From Bacteroidales bacterium (GTDB taxonomy: Bacteria > Bacteroidota > Bacteroidia > Bacteroidales > JBDKHP01): a DNA stretch of 64,000 bases. Numbering within the stretch: position 1 is the first letter of the stretch; every line of letters begins with the position of its first letter. The notes beneath the pieces were generated by a model that worked only from the letters and a program-made list of their open reading frames with translations, had not been told where the DNA came from and made no database searches. The position numbers were made by a program, and so were the translations under genes. The stretch lies in contig CBDDLB010000006.1 of NCBI GenBank assembly GCA_965230435.1, forward strand, positions 1,928,270 to 1,992,269, in the 5' to 3' direction. This document shows positions 11,878 through 50,706 of the stretch, in pieces.

Positions 11878-11909
11878 TGTTTCAGGTTTTAGTAGTGTTA
11901 GAATACTGA

Positions 11910-12033
11910 GTAAAGTGTAAAAAACAATTTCCTTTGAGGCACACAAGGCGTTTAATACCGGAGCGTACTAGAGTACGTGAGGATCTGGACGACCGCAGTG
12001 CAACGAAAACCGAAGTTATTTTTTCAACTTTAC
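11910..12033. repeat. family-A repeat, copy 2
   Basis: The ends are inverted (GTAAAGTGTAAAAAACAATTTCC ... CGAAGTTATTTTTTCAACTTTAC). The core is ATACCGGAGCGTACTagAGTACGTGAGGATCTGGACGACCGCAGTGCAACGAAAA. Confidence 0.8.
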
Positions 12034-12559
12034 TAAATAATTATGTTGAGGGTACAACATAAAAAGTAAAAACAGACCTCTGCTCAAGACGAATAGGTTA
12101 CTATACGAACTGCACATTGTCTGATAGTTAGTGTTTCAGATGAAGCAAATGTAGAACATTTTTCTATCGTTACAAATAAATAATAAAAGTATAACAAACG
12201 CTTAATTACAATCTAAGTTACTTACTTCGGAAAGTTCAGATAGGTTATGTATTTGCCATTAAAAAAAGAAGGGATAGGTGTCAACAAGAACGAACCGAAC
12301 CTGCGCACACTATTACTATCAAGAAGAAAACAAGAAAGATTATGTGATAAAAAAACGGATAAAATAACCAAAGAGATATTCAAAGGGTTCGAAAATCTAC
12401 TTAACTGAATTTACTTCAACGCAGCAAACCAGAACTCAATGCATATTAGCCACAAAAATTATGACTGATAACATATAAAAAAACGCATCAAAAACGACTA
12501 TTGAAGAAGAACTGAAGCTCAATCAACATAATCTAAATTTGATGCGCCGTTTTCAGTTC

Positions 12560-13420: not shown

Positions 13421-13677
13421 TGTTCTAGGTTTTGTTAGTGAATAATTAAAAATTGAGAATGTAGGGTTTGTTAAAAAATTTAGGGTCTAATTTCTCTATC
13501 GTCCTGCTTTTACAAGACGTATTTTGCACAATAAGTCAGTTTTTGAAATGAACCGGACTAACATAAATTCAATCGGTCAGCCCTTCAAATCCCAAGATAA
13601 GAACTGAATGGAGCGTGTTTCAATACCCCATTCAATAACTTATCCGAAAATTGATACTCAAAATTATCACCTGAACT

Positions 13678-15729
13678 TTACTGTTTGATAATTCTTTTTG
13701 GTGTTCCTCCGTCTGCCTGAATGTAGTACACTCCCGTCTTTAAATCCTGTACATCGATCTGTTTTGTATTTTGAACCTGCTTGATCATTTGTCCCGTAGA
13801 GCTAAAAACACGTACAATTTTTATATGCTTATCTGTGGTGAAATTCACAAAATCTGTTGTTGGATTAGGGTACACATCAATACTTTTTTCTTCTACAAAA
13901 GACTCTGCCGAAGAGCTCGATTTTTTAGAAGAAGAAACTCCCATAACTTCCAACTCAAAAAGCTTCACAAGACCAGACTCAGCACCACTTATCATTAAGC
14001 GAACTTTGCTTGTTGAAACTTCGGAGAATGTTCTTGAATAAGCTGCATTATTGTTACCGTTCTCACTGAAAACTGTAGACCACGACGAACCGTTCCACAC
14101 CTGAAACTCGAAGTCGGTAATTGGAGCAGAATAGCCGTTATACCCAGTCCAGAAAGAAACTTCGCTCAACGTTTTTTCTCCTTGCAAATCAACCTCGATC
14201 CATTGAGGGAATGACTGATTTCTACCTGAAAGCCATCTGCTAGAGTTTGAAGTTTTATCTCCATCCACAGCATTTGAGCCAACATATCTTGAATTGTAGC
14301 TAGAACTAACCCTTACCGGTTTATTTAGCACTACATTTTCTTTCACCGCTAAATCCGGGCTAACAGTCAACTTCAATGTGTTCACACTATAAGCACCTGC
14401 ATTAAAAACCAACTTCTTTATAGGAGAACTATAAGTTTCATTAAGCGTCTGCTGTTCGTCTCTATTCTGATCGCTCACCCATGCCTGCACTCCGTCAATG
14501 TTCATCAACGCTGAGTTTGCTCCATCCACGTCTATTGTAATGTTTTGTGCACTTCCAGAAATATTCGTGATATTCATATATACCTCATTCTCGCCTTGCT
14601 TTCTGAAACAAACAACTCTTGTTTTTCCCATCTGGCTAATTGCCTTTCCAATACAATGGGATCTGGCAGGCTGGGTGGAAGTTACTTGCTTAAATCCTGA
14701 ATACACTTTCGATTTACTTGGAGTTCCTTTTCTGGGAGTTCTCAAAAGAGCAGCATTGTTACCAGAACTATTAGATAAATTGAAAATGAAAAAATGATTT
14801 ACACCTCCATTGATAGCATCGCTAATGCGCATTGCCATAGAAACATCTCCAATATAATCTGGCTCGTTCTGTCCGAATACCTCATAAAGCCCATCTCCTT
14901 TCTGAAGCTTTCCTGTTTGTTCGTTGTTTTGAAACGGAAGGCCGTTGATATAATCATAAATTTCTTGATAATTTGCTTCATCCCAACCATTTTGGTATCC
15001 GTGTGTTGTTACAACATCAAGCTGATTGTATGCTTCTGGAAGATTAGCCTTCCATTCATCGAACCATTTTACTGTTCCGGTTACGGCCCAGCTACTTACT
15101 CCTGCAATTTCTGGAGTTGGTATGCCTGTTGGATTGTTTGTGGCCAGAATCTGCTTAAGGCGAGGCACTGCCTCTGAAAACAACCTTCCATAATAAACCG
15201 CATAACTAACGCCACCAGGTTCGTTCAAAAGATCAAGCTGATGAACTGTAACTCCCCTATCCTGAAAGCCCTTCAACACATCGTAGTAATACTGAGCTAT
15301 TTTATCGAAAATATTAGGAATGTTTGGGTCGTACTCCCCTTTCTTTGTTCCTCCTTGGCCATCGGATTTTTCCAGTTCGTCCGGTAAGTCCTGAATAGAA
15401 ATCTGCACCTTTATATTAGGATTATAAACCTTGATGTCATTTACAAAGCTTGCAAAGTTATCGTACGTTTTAGCGTGAGTTTCAGGCGTGCCATTGATAT
15501 AATTCTTTACAAAGTCCAAGTGTATATCTTGAGCTACCATTCTCGCAGCCAAATCCCTGTCTGCTGCGGACATACTCAACCAATGCCCCATGTAGCTGTC
15601 TGAAGTTCCTCCTGCCCCGTAGAAAATTTGCTTATAATCTTCCGCGTGCACAGTAATGGATTGAGCATTCGATTGAACAACCTGCATTGTGATTATTCCC
15701 AAAAACAAAAAGCGTAGATAGTGTTTCAT
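13678..15729 (-). CDS. GH30-like clan GH-A glycosidase with F5/8-type-C (CBM32-like) domain and T9SS C-terminal sorting domain
   Basis: Signal peptide, GH30-style start (KQIFYGAGGTS) and acid/base NEP (HQLDLLNEPGG). It also has a discoidin-like segment (NAVDGDKTSNSSRWLS...FPQWIEVDL) and a Por/T9SS tail (IDVYPNPTTDFVNF...GVYYIQ). Confidence 0.7.
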   Translation of the reverse strand: MKHYLRFLFLGIITMQVVQSNAQSITVHAEDYKQIFYGAGGTSDSYMGHWLSMSAADRDLAARMVAQDIHLDFVKNYINGTPETHAKTYDNFASFVNDIKVYNPNIKVQISIQDLPDELEKSDGQGGTKKGEYDPNIPNIFDKIAQYYYDVLKGFQDRGVTVHQLDLLNEPGGVSYAVYYGRLFSEAVPRLKQILATNNPTGIPTPEIAGVSSWAVTGTVKWFDEWKANLPEAYNQLDVVTTHGYQNGWDEANYQEIYDYINGLPFQNNEQTGKLQKGDGLYEVFGQNEPDYIGDVSMAMRISDAINGGVNHFFIFNLSNSSGNNAALLRTPRKGTPSKSKVYSGFKQVTSTQPARSHCIGKAISQMGKTRVVCFRKQGENEVYMNITNISGSAQNITIDVDGANSALMNIDGVQAWVSDQNRDEQQTLNETYSSPIKKLVFNAGAYSVNTLKLTVSPDLAVKENVVLNKPVRVSSSYNSRYVGSNAVDGDKTSNSSRWLSGRNQSFPQWIEVDLQGEKTLSEVSFWTGYNGYSAPITDFEFQVWNGSSWSTVFSENGNNNAAYSRTFSEVSTSKVRLMISGAESGLVKLFELEVMGVSSSKKSSSSAESFVEEKSIDVYPNPTTDFVNFTTDKHIKIVRVFSSTGQMIKQVQNTKQIDVQDLKTGVYYIQADGGTPKRIIKQ

Positions 15730-21364: not shown

Positions 21365-21700
21365 GTATTCGTTTCTAAGAATCGCACTTTAAACATACAA
21401 CATTGCAAAAACACAACATTCTAATAATCAGAATATTTACCAAAAAGCAGAAATAAAAAGAATATACTACACTAATTTTATCTCATTTTTCTATAACAAA
21501 CTGTTTGTCAATACGTATCCTGTACCTATTACGAAGGAAGAAGAATACAAGGTTGAATATTTTTTGCAAGATTTAAGGCTACGGGCCTATTTAATGATCA
21601 AATAATCTATCAGAATATGAGCTATTTGTATTCTGAAAAGGTTAGATTAAATATGTCCACCTATCCGCTTACATTGCACTTTTTCGACAAACGAAGGAAC

Positions 21701-24700
21701 ATGAGGGAATTAATTGCTGCTGCTTTTTCTATTTGGTGTGTTATTTTTTTGGTTTTTGATGTGCATTCTCAGGATAATAATTACGTCACATCTCAATATA
21801 CGATTACTGACGGATTGCCCCATAACCGTGTAAGTTCGTTGGCTTTCGACAAACAAGGCTTCTTATGGCTTTCCACCTCTAACGGACTTTTCCGTTTCGA
21901 CAGTTATAAGTTTGAGGAGCAGGCTCAAACGGGAAAAGGAACAAAAATCATCAACAGCCCACTTATTGAATCGCTCCTGATCGATACCAAAGGAAACATC
22001 TGGGCTGGTTATTATGTGGGCGGAATCTTAAAATACGACCCCAAAACACAATCTACCGTAGATTATTTGCCAAACGACAACGACTCTAACACCATTTGTG
22101 GAGGAAGAATAAAAACCATCTGCGAAGACAAAAACGGAAACATCTGGATCGGCTCGGGATCTGGCGGTGTCTCGAAGCTCGATTTGAAAACCCAAAAGTT
22201 CAGTCACTATTTAGGGGCAAGACCTAATAAGGGATGGCAAGGTGGGAGTATTAACGAAATTATCTGTTTATCAGATTCCTCTATTTGGGCTGCTGGTATT
22301 GGCGGTTTATTTAAGCATGATAAACATACCGATTCGTTCAAAAAAATAAAACCGCCCAAAAAGTCGACAATAAAAGCCAACGAATTTGCATGTGTAGCCG
22401 AAGATACTTTACGGAACTGCCTGTGGATTGGAGCATGGAGCGATTCCTTGGCAAGGCTAGACCTACATACAGAAGAAATAACTTACAGAAGAAGCAAAGC
22501 CAACGCTACCCCAAGCATTTTGCTAGACAAACAAGGTACTCTATGGCTCGGGTCGTGGGGCCGGGGGATTTATAGGTATTATATTGATGAGAATAAATTT
22601 GAAAAGCACACTTTTGAAGGCGACAAAAAAAAGCAGAACAGTGTAAAAGTAATATTAGATTTGTTAGAACATTCATCGGGCGAAATATGGGTATCCTCGT
22701 ACAGCTCAGGAATGCTATCTATTACAAAAAGCAAAGCATTTAAAAAGGTTAAACTGCCTAAGGGAAGACGGGAAGTACACCCCCAAAGCTTCAGATATCA
22801 CAACAACAATCTTTTCATTTCAACAAATATAAATCTACTGCAACAAACAAGTTCTGGTGAATTCAGAACAATTCTGTGCAAAAAAACATTTAAAGTACTC
22901 TTGCCAGACTCCAACCAGCTATGGGCAACAGCAAATAGATTTGTTGGAAGACTTCAAGAAGGAGAAGACGGAGAATATACTTTGAACCAGATAAGGCTTT
23001 TCGAAGGTAGTAGATTTGTCGATACAAGAAAGGTAAGTGGCGCAGTTTTCAAAGACAGCCTCCTGTACATCTCTTCCATTAATTACCCTATGACAATCTT
23101 CAGGGTGAACAAAGACGGAAAATACAAGTTCATTAAAAGGCTTTGCCCCAAAAACGGTGTCGAAGGCCACCTGCCAACAGTAAGAGTAAACTGTATGCTC
23201 AAAGATTCAAAAGAAAACATCTGGGTCGGCACTATTGGTGGACTTTTTCAAATCAGGGATACCACGCAAATGATACCAGTGCATAAGTTCATTTCGGGAG
23301 GCGAACATTTAAGCAGTGATCTGATATCTGAAATAAAAGAGGACAACAGAGGGCGATTGCTCATCTGCACCAGCAGAGGACTGAACGTCTTAACGCCTAT
23401 AGGTGACGAGGACTATAAATTAACCAAATACAACACTTCTAATGGTCTGCCAGAAAACAATGTTAGATCTTGTTCCGTGGACGTTAACGGAATGATTTGG
23501 CTCAGTACCAATACGAATATTGTGCGCATTAATCCTGAAAATCAGAATGTTTTTGCTTTTGGTAGAAAAGACGGAATAAATGTTTCCAGCTTTACAGGTG
23601 CATCTACTATTGCGCCAGATGGAAAAATGATATTCGGAGCAGAAGGATGTTATATTGAATTCGATCCTACGAAAGTACAGGTACAAAGCAAAGCTCCAAC
23701 TCTGAAGATTTCTGGACTGAGTATTTTAAACAACCCCATAAAAGCAGGAGAAGAATTCCATGATAGAGTAATTCTAAAAAATGCAATCGACTACACAGAA
23801 GAACTAGAGATTACACATAAAGAAAAAGAGTTTTCTATTGAGCTAAGCCTCTTGGAATACCAAAAAGAGAAGAAAAACTTCTACGAATATAAGCTTGTTG
23901 GCTTTGATGAAGACTGGGTGCAGCTCGGAAGACAACGCACAATTTCTTTCACAAATCTTCCTCCCGGAGAGTATCAACTTCAGGCCAGAGCGATTACAAG
24001 CGAGGGCATTTATGTAGAATTATCCAAACCGCTATCCATTATAGTAACACCACCTTGGTGGAAAACAATATGGTTCCGCACAGCCTTCATCCTATTGATA
24101 ATTGCATCTGCTATTGGATATTACAGATACCGAATGCATGCGATAAAAGAGAAAAACAAGGAACTAGAGCATCAGGTTCAGTTACGGACTCAAGAAATCA
24201 GAAAGCAATCGGGAGAAATTGCCGCCCAGCGCGATCATCTTGCAAAAGCAAACTCTATGCTGCAAGAACATCAGGAAGAGATAATTTCGCAACGTGATGT
24301 GCTTTCCGAACAGAAAGACAAACTTGAAGATGCAAATTTCTTACTGAAAGAGCGCCAAGAAGAAATATTGACTCAGAATGAGGAAATAAAGCAACAGACC
24401 GAAGAAATTGCAAGTCAGCGCGATTATGTCCAAAAACAGAACGCTGAAATCGCCGAGGGGTTGATGAGCTTAGAGCTATTGAGCGATTTCGGTCAGAAAC
24501 TTACATCCACTTTACGCTTAGAAGACATTTTAGAAATGGTACACGATTACGTATCGTCTATTTTAAAAACAGATGCATTTGGGGTGGGATTATACCGCGA
24601 TACCAAACAACGGATCGACTACCATGCTTTTTACGAAAACGGTGTTGCACAGCCCTTATTCACAAAAGCTCATGCCCCAGAAACGAGTTTCTCATCATGG

Positions 24701-25750
24701 GCCATCCAGAATAAAAAAGAAATATTCGAAAACAATATCGAACAGAATTATAAATTATACTTCAAGGAGAAACCTTCTTTAAGTACAAATTTCAATGCGA
24801 AATCGCTACTCGTTTTTCCTTTATTTTCAGGAGATAAGGTCATTGGAGTATTATCGATATATAGTCAGGCAGAAAATTCGTATGCGCAAAAAAATTTCTC
24901 ATTCGTAAAAAACCTATCGGCCTATATTTCAATTGCCGTAACCAATGCCCGTCTATACGGCGAAATGAATCGGAAAAACGAAAACATCCAGAGCAGTATC
25001 GCATATGCCCGCAACATTCAAAAGGCAATACTTCCGCTCAAACGGCAAATGGATACTCTCGTGGAAACATTCACACTCTTTTTGCCTAAAGATGTGGTTT
25101 CTGGCGATTTCTATTGGCACTCAGACATTTCCTCTGCCGAAACGAACGAAGCACTGTTCGCAGTTGTCGACTGTACAGGCCACGGAGTTCCCGGCGCCTT
25201 TATGTCTCTGATAGGCAATCGCATATTAAACCGAATCGTAAACGAAAGGAAGGTTCACGAACCCGCACTTATACTAACCGAACTGCACCGTTTCATCGTT
25301 GAAGCATTGAAACAGGACAGCACAGATAACAACGACGGGATGGATGTTGCACTATGCAAAATCACCAAGACTGAAAGTGGGGCAACTATTGCTTACGCAG
25401 GAGCAAAACGCAACCTGATAATTATTGAACCTTCTGGCAACACCAACATTGTAAAAGGTACCAGAAAATCTATTGGCGGGACAAAGGCTCAAAGAAACAA
25501 AACGAACTTTGCGTCCGAAACTTTCAATGCTCCTAAAGGTACAACTCTCTACTTGAGTTCAGATGGCTACACAGACCAAAACAACATCAGCAACAAAAAA
25601 TTTGGCTCTACAGCTCTTTTAGACCTTCTGCGTCAAATTTATCAAGAAGACATAGAAAAACAGTCGCAAATTCTAAAAGAAACCCTACAACAACACATGG
25701 GCAAATATGAACAGCGAGATGATATTACGATTATGGGTATTAAAATCTGA
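21701..25750 (+). CDS. periplasmic beta-propeller/YYY sensor - TM - coiled coil - GAF - PP2C (SpoIIE-family) phosphatase, paralog 1
   Basis: Start set at ATG 21701 (MRELIAAAFSIW...), by analogy with paralog 2. Domains: Reg_prop-like repeats (GLPHNRVSSLAFDKQGFLWLST), YYY (FYEYKLVGFDEDWVQLGRQRTISFTNLPPGEYQLQARA), TM (IWFRTAFILLIIASAIGYY). PP2C motifs: GDFYWH, VDCTGHGVPGAFMS, DGMDVAL, SDGYTDQ, RDDITIMGIKI. Confidence 0.85.
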   Translation: MRELIAAAFSIWCVIFLVFDVHSQDNNYVTSQYTITDGLPHNRVSSLAFDKQGFLWLSTSNGLFRFDSYKFEEQAQTGKGTKIINSPLIESLLIDTKGNIWAGYYVGGILKYDPKTQSTVDYLPNDNDSNTICGGRIKTICEDKNGNIWIGSGSGGVSKLDLKTQKFSHYLGARPNKGWQGGSINEIICLSDSSIWAAGIGGLFKHDKHTDSFKKIKPPKKSTIKANEFACVAEDTLRNCLWIGAWSDSLARLDLHTEEITYRRSKANATPSILLDKQGTLWLGSWGRGIYRYYIDENKFEKHTFEGDKKKQNSVKVILDLLEHSSGEIWVSSYSSGMLSITKSKAFKKVKLPKGRREVHPQSFRYHNNNLFISTNINLLQQTSSGEFRTILCKKTFKVLLPDSNQLWATANRFVGRLQEGEDGEYTLNQIRLFEGSRFVDTRKVSGAVFKDSLLYISSINYPMTIFRVNKDGKYKFIKRLCPKNGVEGHLPTVRVNCMLKDSKENIWVGTIGGLFQIRDTTQMIPVHKFISGGEHLSSDLISEIKEDNRGRLLICTSRGLNVLTPIGDEDYKLTKYNTSNGLPENNVRSCSVDVNGMIWLSTNTNIVRINPENQNVFAFGRKDGINVSSFTGASTIAPDGKMIFGAEGCYIEFDPTKVQVQSKAPTLKISGLSILNNPIKAGEEFHDRVILKNAIDYTEELEITHKEKEFSIELSLLEYQKEKKNFYEYKLVGFDEDWVQLGRQRTISFTNLPPGEYQLQARAITSEGIYVELSKPLSIIVTPPWWKTIWFRTAFILLIIASAIGYYRYRMHAIKEKNKELEHQVQLRTQEIRKQSGEIAAQRDHLAKANSMLQEHQEEIISQRDVLSEQKDKLEDANFLLKERQEEILTQNEEIKQQTEEIASQRDYVQKQNAEIAEGLMSLELLSDFGQKLTSTLRLEDILEMVHDYVSSILKTDAFGVGLYRDTKQRIDYHAFYENGVAQPLFTKAHAPETSFSSWAIQNKKEIFENNIEQNYKLYFKEKPSLSTNFNAKSLLVFPLFSGDKVIGVLSIYSQAENSYAQKNFSFVKNLSAYISIAVTNARLYGEMNRKNENIQSSIAYARNIQKAILPLKRQMDTLVETFTLFLPKDVVSGDFYWHSDISSAETNEALFAVVDCTGHGVPGAFMSLIGNRILNRIVNERKVHEPALILTELHRFIVEALKQDSTDNNDGMDVALCKITKTESGATIAYAGAKRNLIIIEPSGNTNIVKGTRKSIGGTKAQRNKTNFASETFNAPKGTTLYLSSDGYTDQNNISNKKFGSTALLDLLRQIYQEDIEKQSQILKETLQQHMGKYEQRDDITIMGIKI

Positions 25751-26098: not shown

Positions 26099-26389
26099 AG
26101 AAAAAGTAAAAAAGTGCCAAAGGCATGTGTAATAATCTTTGGTTCTTCAATACCACCTACATAATTATTCTCTCACACATAGATGTCATTAAAAGTCAAC
26201 CAACTCATCTACAACACAATAATCACTATCCAATACTTAAATAAATACATCACATCAATTTTATCTATTTTTTCTATAACAAACTGTTCACCAACTACGT
26301 ATCCTGTAGAATATCGAAGAGAGATAAAAATGCTAGTTTACAACTGATTTGTAAAATTGACTATTACACTTTCTAACAAATGAAAGGAT

Positions 26390-29300
26390 ATGAGGGGATT
26401 AATTGTTTTGATATTTTTAATTTGGAGTACTTTTTTTGTGTTTTTTGATACATATTCTCAAAATGACAATTATGTTACTTCTCAGTATACGATTACTGAC
26501 GGATTACCTCACAACCGTGTTAGTTCTCTAGCTTTCGATAAACAAGGTTTTCTGTGGCTTGCAACAGCCAATGGACTTTTCCGGTTCGATAGTTACAAGT
26601 TCGAAGAATACGCAAAAACAAAAACCAATGCAACAGCTATTAACAGCCCATACCTAGAATCCCTTCTTGTTGACTCAAAAGGGAATATCTGGGCAGGTTA
26701 TTACGTAGGTGGCCTTATAAAGTACAATACAACAGACCAGTCTATAGTATCTTATTCTCCAAGCGATAACGATTCAAGTTCAATTTGCAACACCCGCATA
26801 AAAACCATTTGCGAAGACAAACTCGGCAACATTTGGGTTGGTTCCGGTGGTAGTGGAATTGCAAAACTCGACGAAAAGACTGGCAAATTCAAACATTATC
26901 TTAGAAAAAAAACAAAAGATAATGACTGGACCGGCACTAGCGTTAACCAGCTTATCTGCACAAAAGATTCTACTATCTGGGCCGCATGTATTGGGGGGCT
27001 GTATAAGTATAATAAATCTAAAGATTCGTTCGAGAGAATAAAATCTCAAAAGAAATCTAATCACAAACAAAATGAGTTTGCGTGTTTAGTAGAAGATACT
27101 TTACGGAACTGTCTCTGGCTTGGCACTTGGAGCAGTTCGTTGGGAAAGCTAGATTTACAGACAGATGAATTGACCTTTAGAAAGAACAAAGCCACTTCTA
27201 CTGCCAGTATTCTAATAGACTCACAGGGCACCATATGGCTAGGCTCATGGGGAAAAGGACTTTATAGATATTATGCCGATTCTAATAAGTTCGAAAGGCA
27301 CACCTTCGAAGGCGATTCAACCAAAATAAAGAGTATAAAAGTAATACGAAAAATTACAGAACATTCATCGGGAGAGATATGGCTAAGCACACATAGCACA
27401 GGTATTCTGACTATTACTAAAAGTAAAGCATTCAAGAAAATAAAACACCCAAAATCGAAACGCACAACATACACTCAGGACTTAAGGTATATTGACAATA
27501 AGCTATTCATGGCAACAAATATTGGCCTGCATCAAAGAACAGATTCAGGTACATTCAAAGCGATTTCGAAAAGAAGAGTAATTACCCAGAAAATACTCAA
27601 GACAGATTCCAACCAGATTTGGATAACCAACAACCAGTACATAGAAAGACTTCAACAGACAGAAAATGGATACACACTGAAATACTTAAAGCTTTTCAAG
27701 AAAGGCAAATATAATGACACAAGAAAAGTAAGTGGTATAATCTTCAAAGACAGCCTTGCATATATTTCTACGATCCACTACCCGATGACAATCTTTAAAC
27801 TTGGCAAAGGAGGAAACTACTGGTTCAAGAAAAGGCTCAATCCTAAAATCGGAGCTGTAGGTCACCTTCCAACAGCTAGAGTAAATAACATGTTCAAAGA
27901 TTCGAAAGGGAAAATCTGGATCGGAAGTTTTGGTGGACTTTATCAAGTAAAAGGCGAAGATGAAATGTTGCCTGTAAAACAGTTCATATCCAAAGGTAAA
28001 CGCCTAAGCGGGGACCTGATTACAGAAATAGAGGAAGACAGCAAAGGACGCTTACTTGTAAGCACCACCAAAGGGCTAAACATCCTAACACCTACAGACA
28101 AAGACAATTACAATCTTACTATCTACGACACCTCCAATGGACTTCCTGAAAATTACATTAGGTCGTGTGCCGTGGACGTTAACGGGACTGTTTGGGTTAG
28201 CACAAATACAAACATCGTACGCATCGATCTGGAAAAACAAGATGTTTTTGCTTTTGGCAGAAAAGACGGAATAAACGTTCCCATCTTTACACGATCTTCT
28301 ACTGTTTCCCCAGATGGGAAAATCATATTCGGAGCCCGTGGTTGCTATGTTGAATTCGACCCTAAGAAAGTTGAGACGATCAGAAAAAAGCCTAAGCTTG
28401 AACTGTCCAGCCTAAGCATACTGAACAACCCTATAAAAGCAGGAGAAGAGTTCAACGACAGAGTAATTCTGAAAAAAGCTATTAGTTATACTAAAAAGCT
28501 AAAAATCACCTATAAGGAAAAAGAATTCTCAATAGAATTAAGCCTTCTGGAATACCAAAAAGAGAAGAAGAATTTTTATGAATATAAGCTGGTTGGCTTC
28601 GATAACGACTGGGTGCAATTAGGAAGACAACGTACGGTTTCATTTACAAACCTCCCAGCGGGTAAATACCAACTGCAAGCCAGAGCCATTACTAGCGAAG
28701 GTGTTTACGTGAATCTACCCAGCCCGCTTACGATTATTGTAACTCCGCCTTGGTGGAAAACACTTTGGTTCCGTATTACTTTCATCCTATTAATAATCGT
28801 AGGCGCTATTGGCTTCTTCAGGTACCGAATACATGCAATAAAAGAAAAAAACAGGGAACTAGAGCATCAGGTTCTTTTGCGCACACAGGAAATCAGACAA
28901 CAATCTGAAGAGATCGTTGCCCAACGCGATCACCTTGCCATGCAAAAAGAAAAGCTTGAAAAAGCAAACACACTATTGCAAGAGCATCAAGAAGAAATTA
29001 CAACTCAAAGAGATCGACTCTCTGAACAGAAAAACGAACTGGAACATACCAACAACAAACTAAACGTTCAGAATTCAGAAATAAAACAACAGTCTGAAGA
29101 AATCGCTACTCAGCGCGATGAACTCTCTAGGCAAAAAGAGAAATTGGAAAGTACAAACTACTTGCTTAAAGAACGCCAAGAAGAAATATTGGCTCAGAAT
29201 GAGGAGATAAGACAACAGACAGAGGAAATTTCGGCGCAGCGCGATTATGTACAGAAACAAAACAAAGAAATAGAAGAAGGTTTGATGAACATGGAACTAC

Positions 29301-30571
29301 TAAGCGATTTTGGTCAAAAACTAACTTCCATGCTCAGCCTAGACGACATTATGGAAATGGTATACAGCTATGTTTCGTCTATTGTTAAAACCGACGCTTT
29401 TGGAATTGGGCTTTACCGCGACCAGCAAAAACGTATCGACTACCATGCCTTCTATGAAGCTGAAAAAGCACTGGATCCATTTTCTAAGGAATATTGCCCT
29501 GAGCGTAATTTTTCGTCTTGGGCCATTGCTAATAAGAAAGAAGTCTTTGAGAACTCTATCAGCAGAAACTTCAAATTATACTTCAAGGAAGAACCTTCGC
29601 TCTGCACAAACATAAACGCAAAATCCGTACTTATTTTTCTGCTATATTCAGATGAAAAGGTAATTGGAGTCCTATCTGTTTACAACAATAAAGAGGAAGC
29701 CTTTGCTGCAAAAGATTTCTCATTCCTGAAAAACCTTTCAACCTACATTGCAATTGCAGTAGCCAATGCCCGCTTGTACGGCGAGGTAAACAGAAAAAAC
29801 GATCATATACGAAGCAGTATTTCCTATGCCCAAAACATCCAAAAGACTATACTACCTCTAAAAAAACATATGGATGATTTCGTAAAAACCTTCACCCTCT
29901 TCTTACCCAAAGATGTTGTTTCTGGAGATTTCTACTGGCACTCGGACATATCAACCCCAGACAAAAAAGAAGCTCTGTTTGCCGTTATAGATTGTACAGG
30001 ACATGGTGTTCCTGGAGCGTTCATGTCGTTAATCGGGAATCGCATCCTAAACCGCATTGTCAACGAAAGAAAAGTTTACGACCCGGCGCATATACTCACT
30101 GCCTTACACAGCTTTATTGTTGAAGCACTGAAACAGGAAAGTTCCGACAACAACGACGGAATGGATGTTGCCCTTTGTAAAATCACATACCAAAAGCATA
30201 ATGCAACAGTCCAATATGCAGGCGCAAAACGCAACCTTTATATTCTTGAACCTTCTGGAACAACAAAGACAATCAATGGTACCAGAAAATCAATTGGTGG
30301 AGCAAAGGCAAAAAGAAGCAAGGCCGAATTTACCTCTCATACAATCAACGTAGATAAAGAGACAACTCTATACTTAACTTCCGATGGGTATGCAGACCAA
30401 AACGGCGTCAATCAAAAACGGTTTGGATCCAATAAACTTGTCGAACTCCTTTCTGAAATACACAAGGACGACATGCAAAAACAAATGCGAATTCTTAAAC
30501 AAAGGCTGTTCGAACACATGGAGGGCTTTGACCAACGTGACGACATAACCATTATGGGCATTAAAATCTAA
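26390..30571 (+). CDS. beta-propeller/YYY sensor - TM - coiled coil - GAF - PP2C phosphatase, paralog 2
   Basis: 1393 aa, collinear with paralog 1 and carrying the same motif set. It has the longest coiled-coil segment of the three. Confidence 0.85.
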   Translation: MRGLIVLIFLIWSTFFVFFDTYSQNDNYVTSQYTITDGLPHNRVSSLAFDKQGFLWLATANGLFRFDSYKFEEYAKTKTNATAINSPYLESLLVDSKGNIWAGYYVGGLIKYNTTDQSIVSYSPSDNDSSSICNTRIKTICEDKLGNIWVGSGGSGIAKLDEKTGKFKHYLRKKTKDNDWTGTSVNQLICTKDSTIWAACIGGLYKYNKSKDSFERIKSQKKSNHKQNEFACLVEDTLRNCLWLGTWSSSLGKLDLQTDELTFRKNKATSTASILIDSQGTIWLGSWGKGLYRYYADSNKFERHTFEGDSTKIKSIKVIRKITEHSSGEIWLSTHSTGILTITKSKAFKKIKHPKSKRTTYTQDLRYIDNKLFMATNIGLHQRTDSGTFKAISKRRVITQKILKTDSNQIWITNNQYIERLQQTENGYTLKYLKLFKKGKYNDTRKVSGIIFKDSLAYISTIHYPMTIFKLGKGGNYWFKKRLNPKIGAVGHLPTARVNNMFKDSKGKIWIGSFGGLYQVKGEDEMLPVKQFISKGKRLSGDLITEIEEDSKGRLLVSTTKGLNILTPTDKDNYNLTIYDTSNGLPENYIRSCAVDVNGTVWVSTNTNIVRIDLEKQDVFAFGRKDGINVPIFTRSSTVSPDGKIIFGARGCYVEFDPKKVETIRKKPKLELSSLSILNNPIKAGEEFNDRVILKKAISYTKKLKITYKEKEFSIELSLLEYQKEKKNFYEYKLVGFDNDWVQLGRQRTVSFTNLPAGKYQLQARAITSEGVYVNLPSPLTIIVTPPWWKTLWFRITFILLIIVGAIGFFRYRIHAIKEKNRELEHQVLLRTQEIRQQSEEIVAQRDHLAMQKEKLEKANTLLQEHQEEITTQRDRLSEQKNELEHTNNKLNVQNSEIKQQSEEIATQRDELSRQKEKLESTNYLLKERQEEILAQNEEIRQQTEEISAQRDYVQKQNKEIEEGLMNMELLSDFGQKLTSMLSLDDIMEMVYSYVSSIVKTDAFGIGLYRDQQKRIDYHAFYEAEKALDPFSKEYCPERNFSSWAIANKKEVFENSISRNFKLYFKEEPSLCTNINAKSVLIFLLYSDEKVIGVLSVYNNKEEAFAAKDFSFLKNLSTYIAIAVANARLYGEVNRKNDHIRSSISYAQNIQKTILPLKKHMDDFVKTFTLFLPKDVVSGDFYWHSDISTPDKKEALFAVIDCTGHGVPGAFMSLIGNRILNRIVNERKVYDPAHILTALHSFIVEALKQESSDNNDGMDVALCKITYQKHNATVQYAGAKRNLYILEPSGTTKTINGTRKSIGGAKAKRSKAEFTSHTINVDKETTLYLTSDGYADQNGVNQKRFGSNKLVELLSEIHKDDMQKQMRILKQRLFEHMEGFDQRDDITIMGIKI

Positions 30572-31091: not shown

Positions 31092-34000
31092 ATGAAGAAA
31101 CTGAACGCTTTATATATTTGTTGTTTTGTTCTTATTGCCCTCAATACCTTTGCCCAGAACAATAATTATGTCACCTCGCGATACACGATCGCAGACGGTC
31201 TGCCGCATAACCGTGTCAGCTCATTAAAATTCGACCAACAAGGATTCTTATGGCTTGCTACTTCAAACGGACTTTTTAGGTTCGACAGCTATAAATTTAA
31301 AGAATATGCCCAGGTAAAAGCAGACACCTCATTTATAAACAGTCCATATCTAGAATCGTTGCTGGTTGATTCCAAGGGAAACATTTGGTCCGGATATTAC
31401 ATTGGTGGAATCATAAAATACAACCCCAAAGACCAATCTGTAGTATCCTATCTTCCAGACGATAAAGACTCCACCGCCATTTGCGGCAATAGAATTAGGA
31501 GCATCTGCGAAGATAAAGAAGGAAATATATGGGTAGGCTCTGGCGCAAACGGAATAGCAAAGCTTGATATAAAAACACAAACGTTCAAACATTACTTACG
31601 CAGAAAAACCAAATCTGGAGTATGGGTTGGACAAGACATAGGTGGTATTATCTGCACTCGGGACTCCAACATCTGGGCTGCAGGCATTGGAGGGCTATAT
31701 AAATACAACAAAAAGAAAGACCTATTCAAGAGAATTGGAGTTACAAAAAAAAGAAAAGGTGAAACTTTTGCCACCATAGCCGAAGACACTGTACGCAACT
31801 GCATATGGCTCGGTGGCTGGTTTAAGATGCTTGCCAGAATTGACCTAAAAACAGGCAAAGGAAAATGGAAAAGAACCCCGTTAGGACCAATAGTTGAAAT
31901 CCATCCCGACTCAAAAGGAGTATTATGGCTTGGAACTTGGGGCAATGGCATTCTCAGGTATGATGTAGATGCCAAGAAGTTCGAATCGCACACCTTTGAA
32001 GGAGACTCCACCGCATTTGCCAATGTAAAAACAATACGCAGTATTACAGAAGATACTTCTGGGGAAATATGGGTCAGCACACACTACTCTGGCATTCTTA
32101 GCATTTCGCAAAGCAAAGCATTCAAAAAACACGACCTACCTAGCTATGCAAAATCTCAGTTATACACACGCGATCTGGCCTATCTCGACAATAAACTATT
32201 CATAGCAACTCAAAAAGGATTACTGATAAAGCCAGACTCAGGCCAGTTCGAACACATAAAACGTAGAAGTTCAAAATACGACAATCTGGAACGAATATTA
32301 CGAGTAAACGACGATAAGCTATGGGTCACCAATCACGAATTCATAGATTCCCTTTATCTTAAAGACGGGAAGTATAAACTTAAAAAAATATGGTTGTTCA
32401 AAAAAGGAGCCTTTACAGACACACGTAAAGTAAGTGGAATGTTGCGTGACGGAGATTTAATCTACATCTCAACTATTCACTACCCAATAACAATATACAA
32501 ATACAACAAAAAAGGGAACCATAAATTCATAAAAAGGTTCAATCCTCAGAATAAAATAGAAGGTAGCGTATCCACCTCCAAAACAAACGATCTATTTAAA
32601 GATTCGAAAGGAAAAATCTGGATCGGCACTGTTGGCGGTCTTTATCAAATAAAGAATAAAGACAAAATGATTCCAGCACATCGGCTCATAAAAAATGGCA
32701 AGAAACTAGGCAGCGATCTTATTCTGGAAATAAAAGAAGATAACAAAGGCCGAATCTTAGTCTGCACAGGAAAAGGCTTAAACGTATTAACACCTTCTGA
32801 CAACGGGATGTATTCCCTTTCTGTTTACGATGACTCAAAGGGATTGCCCGAAAACAACGTAAGGTCGTGCGCTGTCGATCATGATGGAATCGTTTGGATC
32901 AGCACCAATACCAACATCGTCCGGATTAATCTTGATAGTGAAGAGGTTTCAGCTTTCGGCAGAAAAGACGGTATAAATGTGGAAGAGTTCACGAGATCTT
33001 CTATCGTTAAACCAGATGGGAAAATCATATTCGGAGGCAAAGGCTGTTACCTTGAATTCGATCCTTCGGAGGTGAAAATGTTAAAAAAAACGCCTAGGCT
33101 TGAACTGTCCGGTTTCAGCATTCTGAATAATCCTATAAAAGCTGGTGAAGAATTCAACAACAGGGTAATTCTAGAAAAAGCAATCAATTTTACAAAAAAG
33201 CTGAAAATAACTTATAAAGAAAAAGAATTCACAATTGAGCTGAGCTTGCTGGAATATCAGAAAAACAAAAACAATTTCTACGAATACAAACTTGTTGGTT
33301 TCGATCACGATTGGGTCCAACTGGGCAGGCAACGCTCCATATCTTTCACCAACCTTCCCGCAGGAAAATATGAGCTACAAGCCAGAGCCATCACCAGCGA
33401 AGGATATAAAATAAATCTGCCAACACCGTTAAAAATAACCGTCACCCCTCCTTGGTGGAAAACTGCCTGGTTCCGTATTTCTCTGATTATCTTCATCATT
33501 ACGACCTCGGTTTCTTTCTACCAGTATAGAATGAATGCCATTAAAGCACAAAACAGAAAACTGGAAGAACAAGTACAACAACGTACACAGGAGATCAAAC
33601 AGCAATCTGAAGAAATTAAAACCCAACGCGACAACCTTGTTGAGCAAAAATCCAAACTTGAAGATGCGAACCAACTTCTGAAAGACCGGCAGGAAGAAAT
33701 TCTGATGCGAAATGAAGAAATCCAACAACAGGCAGAGGAAATAACAGCCCAACGGGATTATGTTAAGAAGCAAAACCTTGAGATCGAAGAAGGTTTGAAG
33801 AACATGGAGCTATTAAGTGAGTTTGGTCAAAAACTCACAGCCACCCTTAGCCTCACTGTAATTTTACGCATGGTACATAATTATGTGGCCTCTATCGTAA
33901 AAACCGACGCTTTCGGGGTTGGCCTCTATCGGGACAAAAAGAAGCGGATAGATTATCATGCTTTCTACGAAGACGGGAAAGCCATAGATTTATTTTCAAA

Positions 34001-35087
34001 TGCACACGATCCACAAAAGAGTTTCTCGTCGTGGGCTATTGAAAACAAAAAAGAAATTTTCGAAAACAGTGTATTGAAGAACTTTCGGTTATACTTCAAC
34101 GAAGTACCGTCGCTTAATACTAGTTTCGAAGCAAAATCAGTTTTAGTATTTCCTTTATTTTCAGAAGAAAAAGTAATCGGGGTTTTCTCTGTTTATAGCC
34201 GCGAAGAAGATTCTTATTTGCAAAAAGACTTTGCATTCGTAAAAAGTTTGTCTGCATACATTTCTATTGCAGTGGCCAACGCCCGTTTGTATGGCGAAAT
34301 GAACCGCAAAAATGAGAACATTCAAAGTAGTATTGCTTATGCCAGAAATATTCAGAAAGCAATACTTCCACTAAAACAACATATGGACACATTTGTCCAA
34401 ACCTTTACCCTTTACATGCCGAAAGCTGTAGTATCCGGAGATTTCTACTGGCACACAGACATATCTGAGGGAGATAAAAAAGAGGCCTTCTTTGCTGTTA
34501 TAGACTGTACAGGACATGGTGTTCCCGGGGCTTTCATGTCCCTGATCGGAAACAGGATTCTGAACCGCATTGTTAACGAAAGAGGTGTCCACGAACCAGC
34601 GTCAATATTAACAGAACTAGATAAATTCATTATTGATGCTCTCAAACAACGAACAACCGAAAACAACGACGGTATGGACGTTGCCCTCTGCAAAGTCACA
34701 CAATCTGAGGAAGGGGCAACAGTGGTATATGCTGGAGCTAAACGAAACCTGATCCTTATTGATTCAAAAGGCGAAATAAACATAGCTAAAGGAACACGAA
34801 AATCTATCGGTGGAGCTAAATCCAGAAGAAACAATAAACATTTCACTTCCGAGACCATCGAACTAACCAAGGGAACCACTCTCTACTTAACTTCAGATGG
34901 CTATGCTGATCAGAACGGAGTTAACGAAAGCAAATTCGGTTCAGCCATGCTCTTGGACTATCTATCTAAAATTTATACAGAAGACATGGAAAAACAAGCC
35001 CACTTGCTGGAAAAAACCCTTCTTGAACACATGGGCGGCTTCGAACAACGCGACGACATTACCATCATGGGAGTCAAGATACTATAG
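31092..35087 (+). CDS. beta-propeller/YYY sensor - TM - coiled coil - GAF - PP2C phosphatase, paralog 3
   Basis: 1331 aa with a signal peptide ending TFAQ and the same domain order. It has the shortest coiled coil of the three. Confidence 0.85.
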   Translation: MKKLNALYICCFVLIALNTFAQNNNYVTSRYTIADGLPHNRVSSLKFDQQGFLWLATSNGLFRFDSYKFKEYAQVKADTSFINSPYLESLLVDSKGNIWSGYYIGGIIKYNPKDQSVVSYLPDDKDSTAICGNRIRSICEDKEGNIWVGSGANGIAKLDIKTQTFKHYLRRKTKSGVWVGQDIGGIICTRDSNIWAAGIGGLYKYNKKKDLFKRIGVTKKRKGETFATIAEDTVRNCIWLGGWFKMLARIDLKTGKGKWKRTPLGPIVEIHPDSKGVLWLGTWGNGILRYDVDAKKFESHTFEGDSTAFANVKTIRSITEDTSGEIWVSTHYSGILSISQSKAFKKHDLPSYAKSQLYTRDLAYLDNKLFIATQKGLLIKPDSGQFEHIKRRSSKYDNLERILRVNDDKLWVTNHEFIDSLYLKDGKYKLKKIWLFKKGAFTDTRKVSGMLRDGDLIYISTIHYPITIYKYNKKGNHKFIKRFNPQNKIEGSVSTSKTNDLFKDSKGKIWIGTVGGLYQIKNKDKMIPAHRLIKNGKKLGSDLILEIKEDNKGRILVCTGKGLNVLTPSDNGMYSLSVYDDSKGLPENNVRSCAVDHDGIVWISTNTNIVRINLDSEEVSAFGRKDGINVEEFTRSSIVKPDGKIIFGGKGCYLEFDPSEVKMLKKTPRLELSGFSILNNPIKAGEEFNNRVILEKAINFTKKLKITYKEKEFTIELSLLEYQKNKNNFYEYKLVGFDHDWVQLGRQRSISFTNLPAGKYELQARAITSEGYKINLPTPLKITVTPPWWKTAWFRISLIIFIITTSVSFYQYRMNAIKAQNRKLEEQVQQRTQEIKQQSEEIKTQRDNLVEQKSKLEDANQLLKDRQEEILMRNEEIQQQAEEITAQRDYVKKQNLEIEEGLKNMELLSEFGQKLTATLSLTVILRMVHNYVASIVKTDAFGVGLYRDKKKRIDYHAFYEDGKAIDLFSNAHDPQKSFSSWAIENKKEIFENSVLKNFRLYFNEVPSLNTSFEAKSVLVFPLFSEEKVIGVFSVYSREEDSYLQKDFAFVKSLSAYISIAVANARLYGEMNRKNENIQSSIAYARNIQKAILPLKQHMDTFVQTFTLYMPKAVVSGDFYWHTDISEGDKKEAFFAVIDCTGHGVPGAFMSLIGNRILNRIVNERGVHEPASILTELDKFIIDALKQRTTENNDGMDVALCKVTQSEEGATVVYAGAKRNLILIDSKGEINIAKGTRKSIGGAKSRRNNKHFTSETIELTKGTTLYLTSDGYADQNGVNESKFGSAMLLDYLSKIYTEDMEKQAHLLEKTLLEHMGGFEQRDDITIMGVKIL

Positions 35088-50302: not shown

Positions 50303-50313
50303 AAAAGATTGGA

Positions 50314-50598: not shown

Positions 50599-50706
50599 TG
50601 TGTTTTGGTTTGTTTTTTTGGCAAAAAGAACATTAGCACAGGATAGTTTTCTACTGAACACTATCCTGTGCTTGTTCCTATCCTCTGCTAAAACTATTTT
50701 TGGGAA

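What the first reader, a model, noticed from the sequence alone, without database searches (positions are those of the whole stretch)
28922..29239. Coiled-coil stalks of the three sensor-phosphatases differ by whole heptads (6, 9 and 15 heptads between conserved QRD anchors)
Each paralog has, after the TM helix, a repetitive E/Q/K-rich helix built from modules such as EEIxxQRDxLxxQKxKLExxNxLLKERQEEIL. I counted from the first to the last QRD codon in each.
- Paralog 1 (24227 to 24416): 63 codons.
- Paralog 2 (28922 to 29237): 105 codons.
- Paralog 3 (33624 to 33750): 42 codons.

The individual QRD-to-QRD spacings are 21, 28, 35 or 42 residues. Every length is a multiple of 7, so the insertions and deletions preserved heptad register while changing stalk length by up to about 9 heptads.

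That is what one expects if the helical phase between the membrane and the GAF-PP2C output is functionally constrained but length is free or tunable. The repeats also provide substrate for recombination.
Basis: seen in the sequence. Interest (0 to 1): 0.55.

Follow-up and report, generated by a model that had tools for sequence, protein, structure and literature searches.

The report
Heptad-quantised stalks in three sensor phosphatases
Three neighbouring membrane sensor-phosphatase genes carry a long helical stalk whose length differs only by whole 7-residue units; the same rule holds in about 130 relatives, so this is a clean new example of a known design principle of bacterial signalling proteins.

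Summary
The three paralogues differ in the stalk only by gaps of 7, 35 and 63 residues. Their indels outside the stalk are 1-5 residues.

The proteins are Reg_prop/Y_Y_Y periplasmic sensor, one TM helix, stalk, GAF, SiaA-like PP2C (SpoIIE family).

- In 86 non-redundant homologues with the same architecture, the Y_Y_Y-to-GAF distance falls in one mod-7 class in 78 (binomial 2e-56). Lengths run from 67 to 158 in steps of 7.
- Measured from the S-helix 'ERT' motif, 84/86 are in phase. The two exceptions are one PAS insertion and one sequence with no real ERT motif.
- A GAF-less sister family follows the same rule (48/54; 48/51 from ERT, the rest PAS insertions).

The stalk is an S-helix extended by stereotyped heptads: a = Leu/Ile (~95%), d = Gln (~55%, almost never hydrophobic), e = Asn, f/g = Glu. 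QRD is a register-locked d-e-f variant.

Heptad periodicity of signalling linkers is established knowledge, so this is a new member of a known kind. Length is not quite 'free': the median is 102, and the window's 123, 144 and 186 are the long tail. The repeats are only ~70% identical in DNA, a poor recombination substrate.

The parts
21617..25750 (+). Paralogue 1 (1377 aa as ORF; likely true start 21701): Reg_prop propellers, Y_Y_Y, TM, stalk, GAF, SpoIIE/PP2C
   Evidence: ORF. Pfam: Reg_prop 1.6e-28, Y_Y_Y 1.3e-16, GAF_2 8.7e-13, SpoIIE 3.2e-21. The start inference comes from the alignment with P2 and P3.
26390..30571 (+). Paralogue 2 (1393 aa), same architecture, longest stalk
   Evidence: The NCBIfam best hit is SiaA at 171 bits, below the 700-bit cut-off. 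The exact sequence is in the public protein collection as a singleton, on a 2.98 Mb contig.
31092..35087 (+). Paralogue 3 (1331 aa), same architecture, shortest stalk
   Evidence: The AF2 model of aa 780-1331 has mean pLDDT 86. Its PP2C domain matches SiaA-PP2C 6k4e with target-normalised TM 0.88.
24131..24490 (+). P1 cytoplasmic stalk, 120 aa from the end of the TM helix to the F of the ELLSDFGQ GAF anchor; S-helix 'LRT' R at codon 24185; 101 residues from R to F
   Evidence: Every 'a' position is L/I/V. There is no Pro.
28826..29311 (+). P2 cytoplasmic stalk, 162 aa (about 24 nm if fully helical); S-helix 'LRT' R at codon 28880; 143 residues from R to F; contains the flagged interval 28922-29239
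   Evidence: It has 21 consecutive heptads with L/I/V/M at 'a', and no hydrophobic residue at 'd' between the S-helix Leu and the GAF-proximal Leu.
33528..33824 (+). P3 cytoplasmic stalk, 99 aa; S-helix 'QRT' R at codon 33582; 80 residues from R to F
   Evidence: AF2 predicts helix 13-69 and 80-138 of the fragment, running without a break into the first GAF helix.
28907..29095 (+). 63-residue (9-heptad) segment present in P2 and absent from P3; the placement within the repeats is arbitrary
   Evidence: Protein alignment A1, DNA alignment A4 and translation check. The DNA copy at 28889-28998 matches 29078-29187 at 71% identity, 189 nt apart.
28757..28825 (+). P2 transmembrane helix (KTLWFRITFILLIIVGAIGFFRY), directly after the Y_Y_Y domain
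   Evidence: Read from the sequence. It is helical in the AF2 model of the P3 equivalent.
29333..29767 (+). P2 GAF domain
   Evidence: Pfam GAF_2 1.2e-11, aa 982-1124. PDB 3o5y sensor GAF, 2.3e-11.
29969..30565 (+). P2 PP2C (SpoIIE-family) catalytic domain; it is preceded by a fixed 21-residue GAF-to-PP2C helix segment
   Evidence: Pfam SpoIIE 9.2e-20. PDB 6k4e SiaA-PP2C, 1.4e-25. The GAF-to-PP2C spacing is constant at 21 aa in 82/83 homologues.

Best explanation
Each of the three genes encodes a single-pass membrane sensor phosphatase. A periplasmic double beta-propeller plus Y_Y_Y domain is joined through one TM helix to an unbroken cytoplasmic helix, which runs straight into the first helix of a GAF domain. 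The GAF domain is followed by a fixed 21-residue helix and a SiaA-like PP2C domain.

The cytoplasmic helix is a signalling helix (S-helix, with 'xRT' at heptad positions c-d-e). It is extended C-terminally by a variable number of stereotyped heptads with Leu/Ile at a, Gln at d, Asn/Lys/Arg at e and Glu/Asp at f and g. QRD is simply a d-e-f variant of this heptad.

My inference is that two chains form a parallel, marginally stable coiled coil with a polar core. Ligand-induced rearrangement of the periplasmic and TM dimer would then travel down this coiled coil as a change in helix packing, rotation or stability, reach the GAF-PP2C dimer, and switch the phosphatase.

A coiled coil passes on the angular relation between its ends only if it stays in register. 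Insertions or deletions of whole heptads are therefore tolerated and all others are purged. That is why the three paralogues, and essentially all relatives, differ by multiples of 7.

Shown here: the architecture, the helical prediction, the uninterrupted heptad register, the family-wide quantisation and the constant GAF-PP2C spacer. Inferred: dimerisation, parallel orientation, the mode of signal transmission and the substrate.
For: Architecture: Pfam; PP2C closest to SiaA-PP2C 6k4e by sequence and by fold (target TM 0.88).

Observation in the window. Control indels of 1-5 aa outside the stalk.

Family test:
- W(PPWW) to the GAF anchor is 4 mod 7 in 78/86 non-redundant stalks, binomial 2e-56. 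Lengths are 67, 74, 81 ... 158.
- ERT-R to the GAF anchor is 3 mod 7 in 84/86. The exceptions are one PAS insertion and one false motif.
- The GAF-less Y_Y_Y-SpoIIE sister family is in phase in 48/54. From ERT it is 48/51, and the other 3 are PAS insertions. One stalk is 260 residues = 7x37+1.

Register and composition:
- a = L/I/V 96-99% and d = Q 55-56% over 463-503 heptads.
- The register is anchored by the published assignment ERT = c, d, e (PMC1592074).
- QRD has Q at d in 69/70 occurrences.

Helicity: AF2 predicts a helix through the TM segment, the stalk and the first GAF helix. There is no Pro and only 1-2 Gly in 99-162 residues.

Precedents:
- Heptad dependence of linker length in LOV and bacteriophytochrome kinases (PMC6798134) and in BvgS (PMC5829827).
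- Coiled-coil linkers with buried polar a/d residues controlling dimeric PPM phosphatases (PMC12143880).
- Scissor-like signalling by the Y_Y_Y sensor BT4663 (PMC8534201).
Against: Oligomeric state, parallel orientation and actual core packing are therefore inferred.

The AF2 monomer shows a low-confidence break at P3 aa 847-858 (pLDDT below 50). Stalk pLDDT is only 46-88. I read the break as a monomer fold-back artefact, but it could be a real hinge.

With Gln rather than a hydrophobic residue at most d positions, a stable canonical coiled coil is not guaranteed.

Selection on phase cannot be fully separated from a mutational bias towards whole-repeat indels. Homologues are not phylogenetically independent, so the binomial P overstates significance.

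No partner-switching substrate gene (STAS, anti-sigma) lies in the window, so the output pathway is unknown.
Confidence: 0.8

Rival explanations
1. Mutational bias alone. The stalk is built of heptad-based repeats, so slippage or unequal crossing-over between repeats can only add or remove whole repeats. On this view the multiples of 7 record how indels arise, not a functional need for phase.
For: P2 contains internal DNA repeats 189 nt and 126 nt apart, which is 9 and 6 heptads. The 63-residue difference between P2 and P3 equals one such repeat spacing. Super-repeats of 28-42 residues are visible in long homologues such as P0042 and P0206.
Against: - The repeats are only 69-75% identical, and the short near-exact matches reach only 12-14 nt.
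- One indel is a single heptad (MQKEKLE) and not a repeat unit.
- The paralogues are only 57-79% identical and the homologues only 30-45%. That is ample time for ordinary 1-6 residue indels, which do occur elsewhere in the same proteins. Yet none is found in 131 pure-helix stalks.
- Phase shifts are seen in the adjacent TM segment, so the region is not immune to them.
Confidence: 0.1
2. The stalk is a rigid spacer or single alpha-helix, or an acidic flexible tether. It would set only the distance of GAF-PP2C from the membrane and would not transmit conformational information through a coiled-coil interface.
For: The sequence is very polar: 22% E+D and 18-23% Q+N. Position d is almost never hydrophobic. 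Length varies about 4-fold across the family.
Against: - A spacer needs no phase conservation, yet phase is conserved in about 95-100% of stalks.
- Position a is 96-99% Leu/Ile/Val over about 500 heptads, which marks a packing seam.
- K+R is only 14-17% against 22% E+D, unlike the charge-balanced E/K pattern of single alpha-helix domains (my own knowledge).
- The N-terminal part is a recognisable S-helix, a dimeric signalling element.
Confidence: 0.05
3. The repeated heptads, with conserved exposed N/E/E and QRD positions, are docking sites for another protein or a higher-order assembly. Examples would be lateral arrays or binding of the substrate or a modifying enzyme. The number of repeats would then set stoichiometry rather than signalling geometry.
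For: Positions e, f and g (N 43%, E 48%, E 63%) are more conserved than b and c. That is more than a simple dimer seam requires. An S-helix that is covalently modified is known: RsbK is methylated by RsbM (PMC4574943 abstract).
Against: No methyltransferase, kinase or STAS gene is linked in the window. The e and g positions flank the core in any dimeric coiled coil, and f = E may simply keep the helix soluble. Nothing here shows a partner.
Confidence: 0.05

Closest known systems
Signalling helix (S-helix) of Anantharaman, Balaji & Aravind 2006 (PMC1592074)
   Same: It sits between a TM-linked extracellular sensor and a cytoplasmic signalling domain. It has heptad periodicity, a polar 'ERT' signature at c-d-e of a central heptad, and PP2C and GAF among its documented neighbours. 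Homologues carry LExxVxERTxEI right after the TM helix. The window's proteins have LRT or QRT.
   Different: The S-helix was described as about 5 heptads (about 40 residues). Here it is extended by a further 8, 11 and 17 in-phase heptads beyond the 24-residue ERT-to-GAF spacing that is commonest in GAF proteins with other sensors. The extension uses a stereotyped heptad with Gln at d. The E of ERT is not conserved in the three window proteins.
Heptad-periodic coiled-coil linkers of sensor histidine kinases and cyclases (YF1 and LOV/BPhy receptors, BvgS)
   Same: Natural linker lengths cluster in one or two mod-7 classes. Experiments show that activity and signal polarity depend on linker length with period 7 (PMC6798134; PMC5829827).
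   Different: The output here is GAF-PP2C, not DHp-kinase. The length range is much larger, at about 4 to 30 heptads. Only one phase class is populated here, whereas a 7n+1 linker inverts the response in engineered YF1 variants. No functional data exist for this family.
Coiled-coil linker control of dimeric PPM phosphatases (RsbU, RsbP, RssB; Baral et al. eLife 2025, PMC12143880)
   Same: A SpoIIE/RsbU-type PP2C output sits behind a helical linker. Unfavourable polar residues (for example RsbU Q94) are buried at a/d positions, and linker stability controls dimerisation and activation.
   Different: In RsbU the linker is about 30 residues and is ordered by a partner protein (RsbT). Here the long stalk lies upstream of a GAF domain, and the GAF-PP2C helix itself is fixed at 21 residues. 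The input is a transmembrane sensor.
Bacteroides hybrid two-component sensors with Reg_prop/Y_Y_Y periplasmic domains (BT4663)
   Same: The periplasmic sensor architecture is the same: Reg_prop propellers plus Y_Y_Y, directly before the TM helix. BT4663 signals by a scissor-like movement of the dimer (PMC8534201).
   Different: The cytoplasmic part is S-helix stalk, GAF and PP2C, not HisKA-HATPase-REC-AraC. These proteins are not two-component kinases.
Chemoreceptor (MCP) heptad length classes
   Same: This is a family of membrane receptors whose cytoplasmic coiled coils differ by whole heptads. Length class determines which receptors can assemble together (PMC6759762).
   Different: MCPs form an antiparallel hairpin four-helix bundle and keep symmetric indels (my own knowledge). 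No MCP signalling domain is present here. The stalk here is a single helix per chain.

Membership tests
S-helix (signalling helix) | Helical segment located between an N-terminal sensor or TM segment and a C-terminal signalling domain | tested here: met
   The stalk lies between the TM helix and GAF-PP2C.
S-helix (signalling helix) | Heptad pattern with conserved a/d seam over about 5 heptads | tested here: met
   In the first heptads after the TM helix, L(d) and V(a) flank the R of xRT, and 'a' is aliphatic throughout.
S-helix (signalling helix) | 'ERT' signature at c-d-e of the central heptad | tested here: inconclusive
   Most homologues have ERT. The window proteins have LRT, LRT and QRT: R and T are kept and E is lost. 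No S-helix HMM was available for a formal score.
S-helix (signalling helix) | Forms a parallel dimeric coiled coil | not testable with these tools
   Only monomer prediction is offered.
Heptad-periodic signalling linkers | Natural length distribution quantised with period 7 | tested here: met
   78/86 stalks from the W anchor, 84/86 from ERT, and 48/54 in the GAF-less sister family.
Heptad-periodic signalling linkers | Activity or response depends on linker phase | not testable with these tools
   This needs insertion and deletion mutants.
SpoIIE/RsbU-type PPM (PP2C) phosphatases | Match to the PF07228 SpoIIE domain above the gathering score | tested here: met
   69-77 bits against a cut-off of 25 in all three proteins.
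SpoIIE/RsbU-type PPM (PP2C) phosphatases | PP2C fold | tested here: met
   Foldseek hit to 6k4e, E 3e-20, target-normalised TM 0.88, 33% identity. Further hits to RssB, SpoIIE and RsbX. Invariant Asp/Gly columns are present in alignment A2 but were not mapped to metal ligands.
SiaA (NF038263 equivalog) | Whole-protein score above the NCBIfam cut-off | tested here: not met
   171.5 bits against a cut-off of 700. Only the PP2C part aligns. It is SiaA-like in its output domain and is not a SiaA orthologue.
Bacteroides hybrid two-component system (HTCS) | Reg_prop + Y_Y_Y periplasmic sensor | tested here: met
   Pfam Reg_prop 1e-28 to 1e-31 and Y_Y_Y 1e-15 to 1e-16.
Bacteroides hybrid two-component system (HTCS) | Cytoplasmic HisKA-HATPase-REC-HTH_AraC output | tested here: not met
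   None of these domains was found. The output is GAF + SpoIIE.
Methyl-accepting chemotaxis proteins (heptad classes) | MCP signalling domain hairpin | tested here: not met
   There is no MCPsignal hit in Pfam. The resemblance is by analogy only.

The most novel reading that the evidence does not exclude
The stalk is a distinct, iterated module: an 'extensible S-helix' made of polar-core heptads (Leu/Ile at a, Gln at d, Asn-Glu-Glu at e-f-g). Its copy number, about 4 to 30 heptads across Bacteroidota sensor phosphatases, would be an evolvable functional parameter. Length could set signalling gain or threshold through the cumulative marginal stability of a Gln-zippered coiled coil. It could also insulate co-expressed tandem paralogues from heterodimerising, much as chemoreceptor length classes keep arrays separate. 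The three adjacent genes, with R-to-GAF spacings of 80, 101 and 143 residues, would then be a natural case of length-based insulation.
Probability: 0.25. Interest if true: 0.6.

Novelty: new member of a known kind. Interest (0 to 1): 0.35.

Why it matters
Phase-preserving coiled-coil linkers are a central idea in bacterial transmembrane signalling. Most evidence for them comes from histidine kinases, cyclases and engineered photoreceptors. This family carries the rule over to transmembrane PP2C sensor phosphatases, and does so very cleanly: about 130 natural stalks, more than a dozen lengths and essentially no out-of-phase cases.

It also offers a ready-made natural experiment. Three adjacent paralogues have the same domains but stalks that differ by 3, 6 and 9 heptads (21, 42 and 63 residues). 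The nearly universal Gln at the core d position suggests deliberate metastability, which bears on how signals travel 15-24 nm along a helix. Engineers of synthetic receptors could use such a length-tolerant, phase-strict connector.

The principle itself is already known, so the finding confirms and extends it rather than changing understanding.

Tried and rejected
- Regex anchors for the TM and GAF boundaries were unreliable. I replaced them with HMM-mapped anchor columns built from the three paralogues.
- A second word-indexed homologue search, with only the Y_Y_Y-to-GAF segment of P3, gave just 12 hits. The exhaustive profile search supplied most of the family.
- The look-up of encoding contigs found no record for P2. 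The listing of cluster members showed all three proteins and GyrA as singletons on one unnamed 2.98 Mb contig, so the organism could not be named. The nearest relatives are Flammeovirgaceae, Bernardetiaceae, Microscillaceae and Bacteroidales.
- The genome-contig scan returned no close orthologue: the best hits were 38-44% identical. It added only 4 further Y_Y_Y+GAF stalks, all in phase. It did supply many GAF-less relatives.
- A literature search for the QNEEL/QNEEI motif and for the Y_Y_Y-GAF-SpoIIE architecture found nothing relevant.
- I looked for partner-switching or modifying genes in the whole window and found none.
- The sigma-70 promoter scan found fewer sites than expected from shuffles (19 against 33). 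That consensus is in any case not suited to Bacteroidota.
- The PDB sequence search of the stalk hit only designed antiparallel coiled coils, through compositional similarity. I disregarded these hits.
- I considered a single-alpha-helix or disordered linker and rejected it because of the aliphatic 'a' seam and the phase conservation.
Full report
**What is there**

The window carries three tandem, same-strand genes: P1 21617-25750, P2 26390-30571 and P3 31092-35087. All three have the same Pfam architecture:
- Reg_prop beta-propeller repeats
- a Y_Y_Y domain
- one hydrophobic helix directly after the conserved PPWWKT
- a long polar helix
- a GAF domain
- a SpoIIE-family PP2C domain

The PP2C part is closest to Pseudomonas SiaA. 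NCBIfam gives 171 bits, far below the 700-bit equivalog cut-off. The PDB sequence search gives 6k4e at 1.4e-25. Foldseek gives a target-normalised TM of 0.88.

The proteins are 57-79% identical to each other depending on region. P1 and P2 are the closest pair. The best relative among 5.8 billion clustered proteins is only 38% identical. The exact sequences exist publicly as singletons on one unnamed 2.98 Mb contig. The nearest relatives, and a T9SS sorting domain in a neighbouring gene, place the organism in Bacteroidota.

**Checking the observation**

| Paralogue | QRD codon starts | Spacings (residues) | First-to-last (codons) |
|---|---|---|---|
| P1 | 24227, 24290, 24416 | 21, 42 | 63 |
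| P2 | 28922, 29006, 29111, 29237 | 28, 35, 42 | 105 |
| P3 | 33624, 33750 | 42 | 42 |

Independent MAFFT alignments put all stalk gaps at 7 + 35 residues (P1) and 63 residues (P3) for protein. The DNA alignment gives 21, 105 and 189 nt. The distance from W of PPWWKT to F of ELLSxFGQ is 144, 186 and 123, all 4 mod 7.

The same three proteins differ elsewhere by indels of 1, 1, 5, 3, 1, 2 and 1 residues. The stalk is therefore special within these proteins.

I built small HMMs of the Y_Y_Y/TM anchor, the GAF anchor and the PP2C N-terminal anchor from the three paralogues. I mapped them onto homologues from three sources: a word-indexed search, an exhaustive profile search of 1.84 billion representatives and a scan of GTDB species genomes.

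Results for proteins with the same Y_Y_Y, TM, stalk and GAF architecture:
- Of 86 non-redundant stalks, 78 fall in the same mod-7 class as the window's proteins (binomial 2e-56).
- They take 11 different lengths, from 67 to 158 residues in steps of 7.
- The printed heptad-aligned sequences show that the few outliers are shifted only inside the TM or juxtamembrane segment, or carry an inserted PAS domain.
- Measured instead from the R of the S-helix 'ERT' motif to the GAF anchor, 84/86 are in phase. The two exceptions are a PAS insertion and a protein with no real ERT motif.

A sister family lacks GAF and has Y_Y_Y, TM, stalk and SpoIIE. It obeys the same rule. From the W anchor 48/54 are in phase. 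From ERT 48/51 are in phase, and the other three are PAS insertions. Its lengths run from 64 to 141, plus one of 260 = 7x37+1.

The helix between GAF and PP2C is fixed at 21 residues in 82/83 homologues. All length variation is therefore confined to the TM-to-GAF stalk. The homologues are not phylogenetically independent, so the P value is nominal. Even so, the many distinct lengths at 30-45% identity make the pattern robust.

**Anatomy of the stalk**

Right after the TM helix the family carries LExxVxERTxEI. This is the signalling helix of Anantharaman et al., whose ERT occupies heptad positions c, d and e (PMC1592074). That assignment fixes the register. The window's proteins have LRT, LRT and QRT.

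Over 463-503 heptads from the homologues, the part downstream of the S-helix has this composition:

| Heptad position | Commonest residues |
|---|---|
| a | Leu 50-53%, Ile 41%, Val 5% |
| d | Gln 55-56%, Lys 16%, Ala 12-13%, Arg 5%; essentially no hydrophobic residues |
| e | Asn 43-44%, Lys 21% |
| f | Glu 48-50%, Asp 17-18% |
| g | Glu 63-66% |

In P2, 21 consecutive 'a' positions are L/I/V/M. No 'd' position between the S-helix Leu and the GAF-proximal Leu is hydrophobic.

QRD is a d-e-f variant of the usual Q-N-E. It occurs in 59 of 134 homologous stalks, and Q is at d in 69 of 70 occurrences.

The stalks contain no proline and only 1-2 glycines in 99-162 residues. AlphaFold2 on P3 aa 780-1331, with a 27-sequence alignment, predicts a helix through the TM segment and stalk that continues into the first GAF helix. 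It shows one low-confidence break at aa 847-858, and stalk pLDDT is 46-88. GAF and PP2C are confident. I read the break as the usual fold-back of a long helix modelled without its partner, but a hinge cannot be excluded.

**How it most likely works**

The following is inferred. The Y_Y_Y sensor BT4663 signals as a dimer by a scissor-like movement (PMC8534201). S-helices are parallel dimeric elements between sensors and outputs, PP2C included. Dimeric PPM phosphatases are switched through coiled-coil linkers that bury unfavourable polar residues at a/d (PMC12143880).

The simplest model is therefore a parallel, marginally stable coiled coil that relays the periplasmic rearrangement to a GAF-PP2C dimer. 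In such a device the angular relation of the two ends is kept only by whole-heptad indels. Engineered and natural kinases with period-7 length dependence show exactly this (PMC6798134; PMC5829827). The substrate is unknown, and no STAS or anti-sigma genes are in the window.

Length is not free. The distribution is peaked, with median 102 and interquartile range 95-109. P3 (123), P1 (144) and P2 (186) sit at the 92nd percentile, the 99th percentile and the maximum of the GAF-type sample. If fully helical, the stalks would be roughly 15, 18 and 24 nm long.

The internal DNA repeats in P2 (spacings 189 and 126 nt) are only 69-75% identical, and the short near-exact matches reach only 12-14 nt. 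They record old duplications rather than providing a good present-day recombination substrate.

A purely mutational origin of the multiples of 7 cannot be excluded formally. It fits poorly with three facts: the single-heptad indel, the complete absence of 1-6 residue indels in 131 diverged pure-helix stalks, and their presence in the neighbouring domains and TM segment.

**Comparison and novelty**

Heptad periodicity of signalling linkers, the S-helix and chemoreceptor heptad length classes (PMC6759762) are all established. This is a new and unusually clean member of that kind.

Two things appear undescribed in the literature I could search. One is the stereotyped Gln-at-d heptad iterated 4 to about 30 times in Bacteroidota Y_Y_Y sensor phosphatases. 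The other is the very wide length range. The speculative reading is that heptad number is a tuned parameter, for gain or for insulating tandem paralogues from heterodimerising. That reading is not excluded and not tested.

**Verdict**

The finding is a new member of a known kind and of moderate interest.

Noticed in passing
window 21617-21700: The first ATG of the P1 ORF adds 28 N-terminal residues with no counterpart in P2 or P3. The likely true start is the ATG at 21701 (MRELIAAAFSIW...), which aligns with the signal-peptide-like N-termini of the other two.
   Followed up: partly
window about 21500-21600 and 26190-26290: The regions upstream of P1 and P2 share a conserved block of about 100 nt (…CAATTTTATCT..TTTTTCTATAACAAACTGTT…CTACGTATCCTGTA…). 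The tandem duplication therefore carried the 5' region along. The region upstream of P3 has largely diverged. The intergenic gaps are 639 and 520 nt with no ORF of 100 aa or more.
   Followed up: partly
window 11014-15729 and 40380-44069: Glycan-related genes lie nearby: two GH16 genes (11014-11946, 12560-13420), an F5/8-type-C protein with a T9SS sorting tail (13678-15729) and a GH31 (40380-44069). Y_Y_Y sensors in Bacteroides detect glycans, so these may hint at the ligands. No direct link is shown.
   Followed up: no
P0042 (homologue), stalk region: A GAF-less Y_Y_Y-SpoIIE homologue has 260 residues between the W anchor and the PP2C anchor (7x37+1). It is built of about 27 QNEEI / AQRDxLE / LNxEL heptads in a 28-35 residue super-repeat. 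It is the longest stalk seen.
   Followed up: partly
P0226, P0250, L013, L014, L016 (homologues): Some relatives have one or two PAS domains inserted in the middle of the stalk, flanked on both sides by the same Q-heptads. With P0121, which lacks a real ERT motif, these are the only cases where the S-helix-to-output distance is out of phase.
   Followed up: partly
all homologues; window e.g. 29768-29840 (P2): The helix joining GAF to the PP2C domain (NARLYGE…IQKAILP) has a fixed spacing of 21 residues (3 heptads) in 82/83 homologues. This contrasts with the variable TM-GAF stalk.
   Followed up: yes
window 47021-48847 (-): A soluble PAS-PAS-HisKA-HATPase histidine kinase is encoded about 12 kb downstream of the paralogue array. 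I did not examine it for similar heptads.
   Followed up: no
window 49301-52035 (-): An EgtD-like histidine-specific SAM methyltransferase (PF10017, 4e-103) lies next to a triple-rhodanese protein. This may be a thiohistidine (ergothioneine/ovothiol-type) biosynthesis pair.
   Followed up: no
window 60000-64000: G+C drops to 0.31-0.36 after 0.46 in the preceding 4 kb. The segment contains an IS1595-family transposase (60641-61558), so it is probably an insertion or island boundary.
   Followed up: no
P3 aa 847-858 (window about 33630-33665): The AF2 monomer model breaks the stalk helix here with pLDDT below 50, just after the first QRD. The heptad pattern itself is uninterrupted. This is probably a fold-back artefact, but a hinge is possible.
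   Followed up: no
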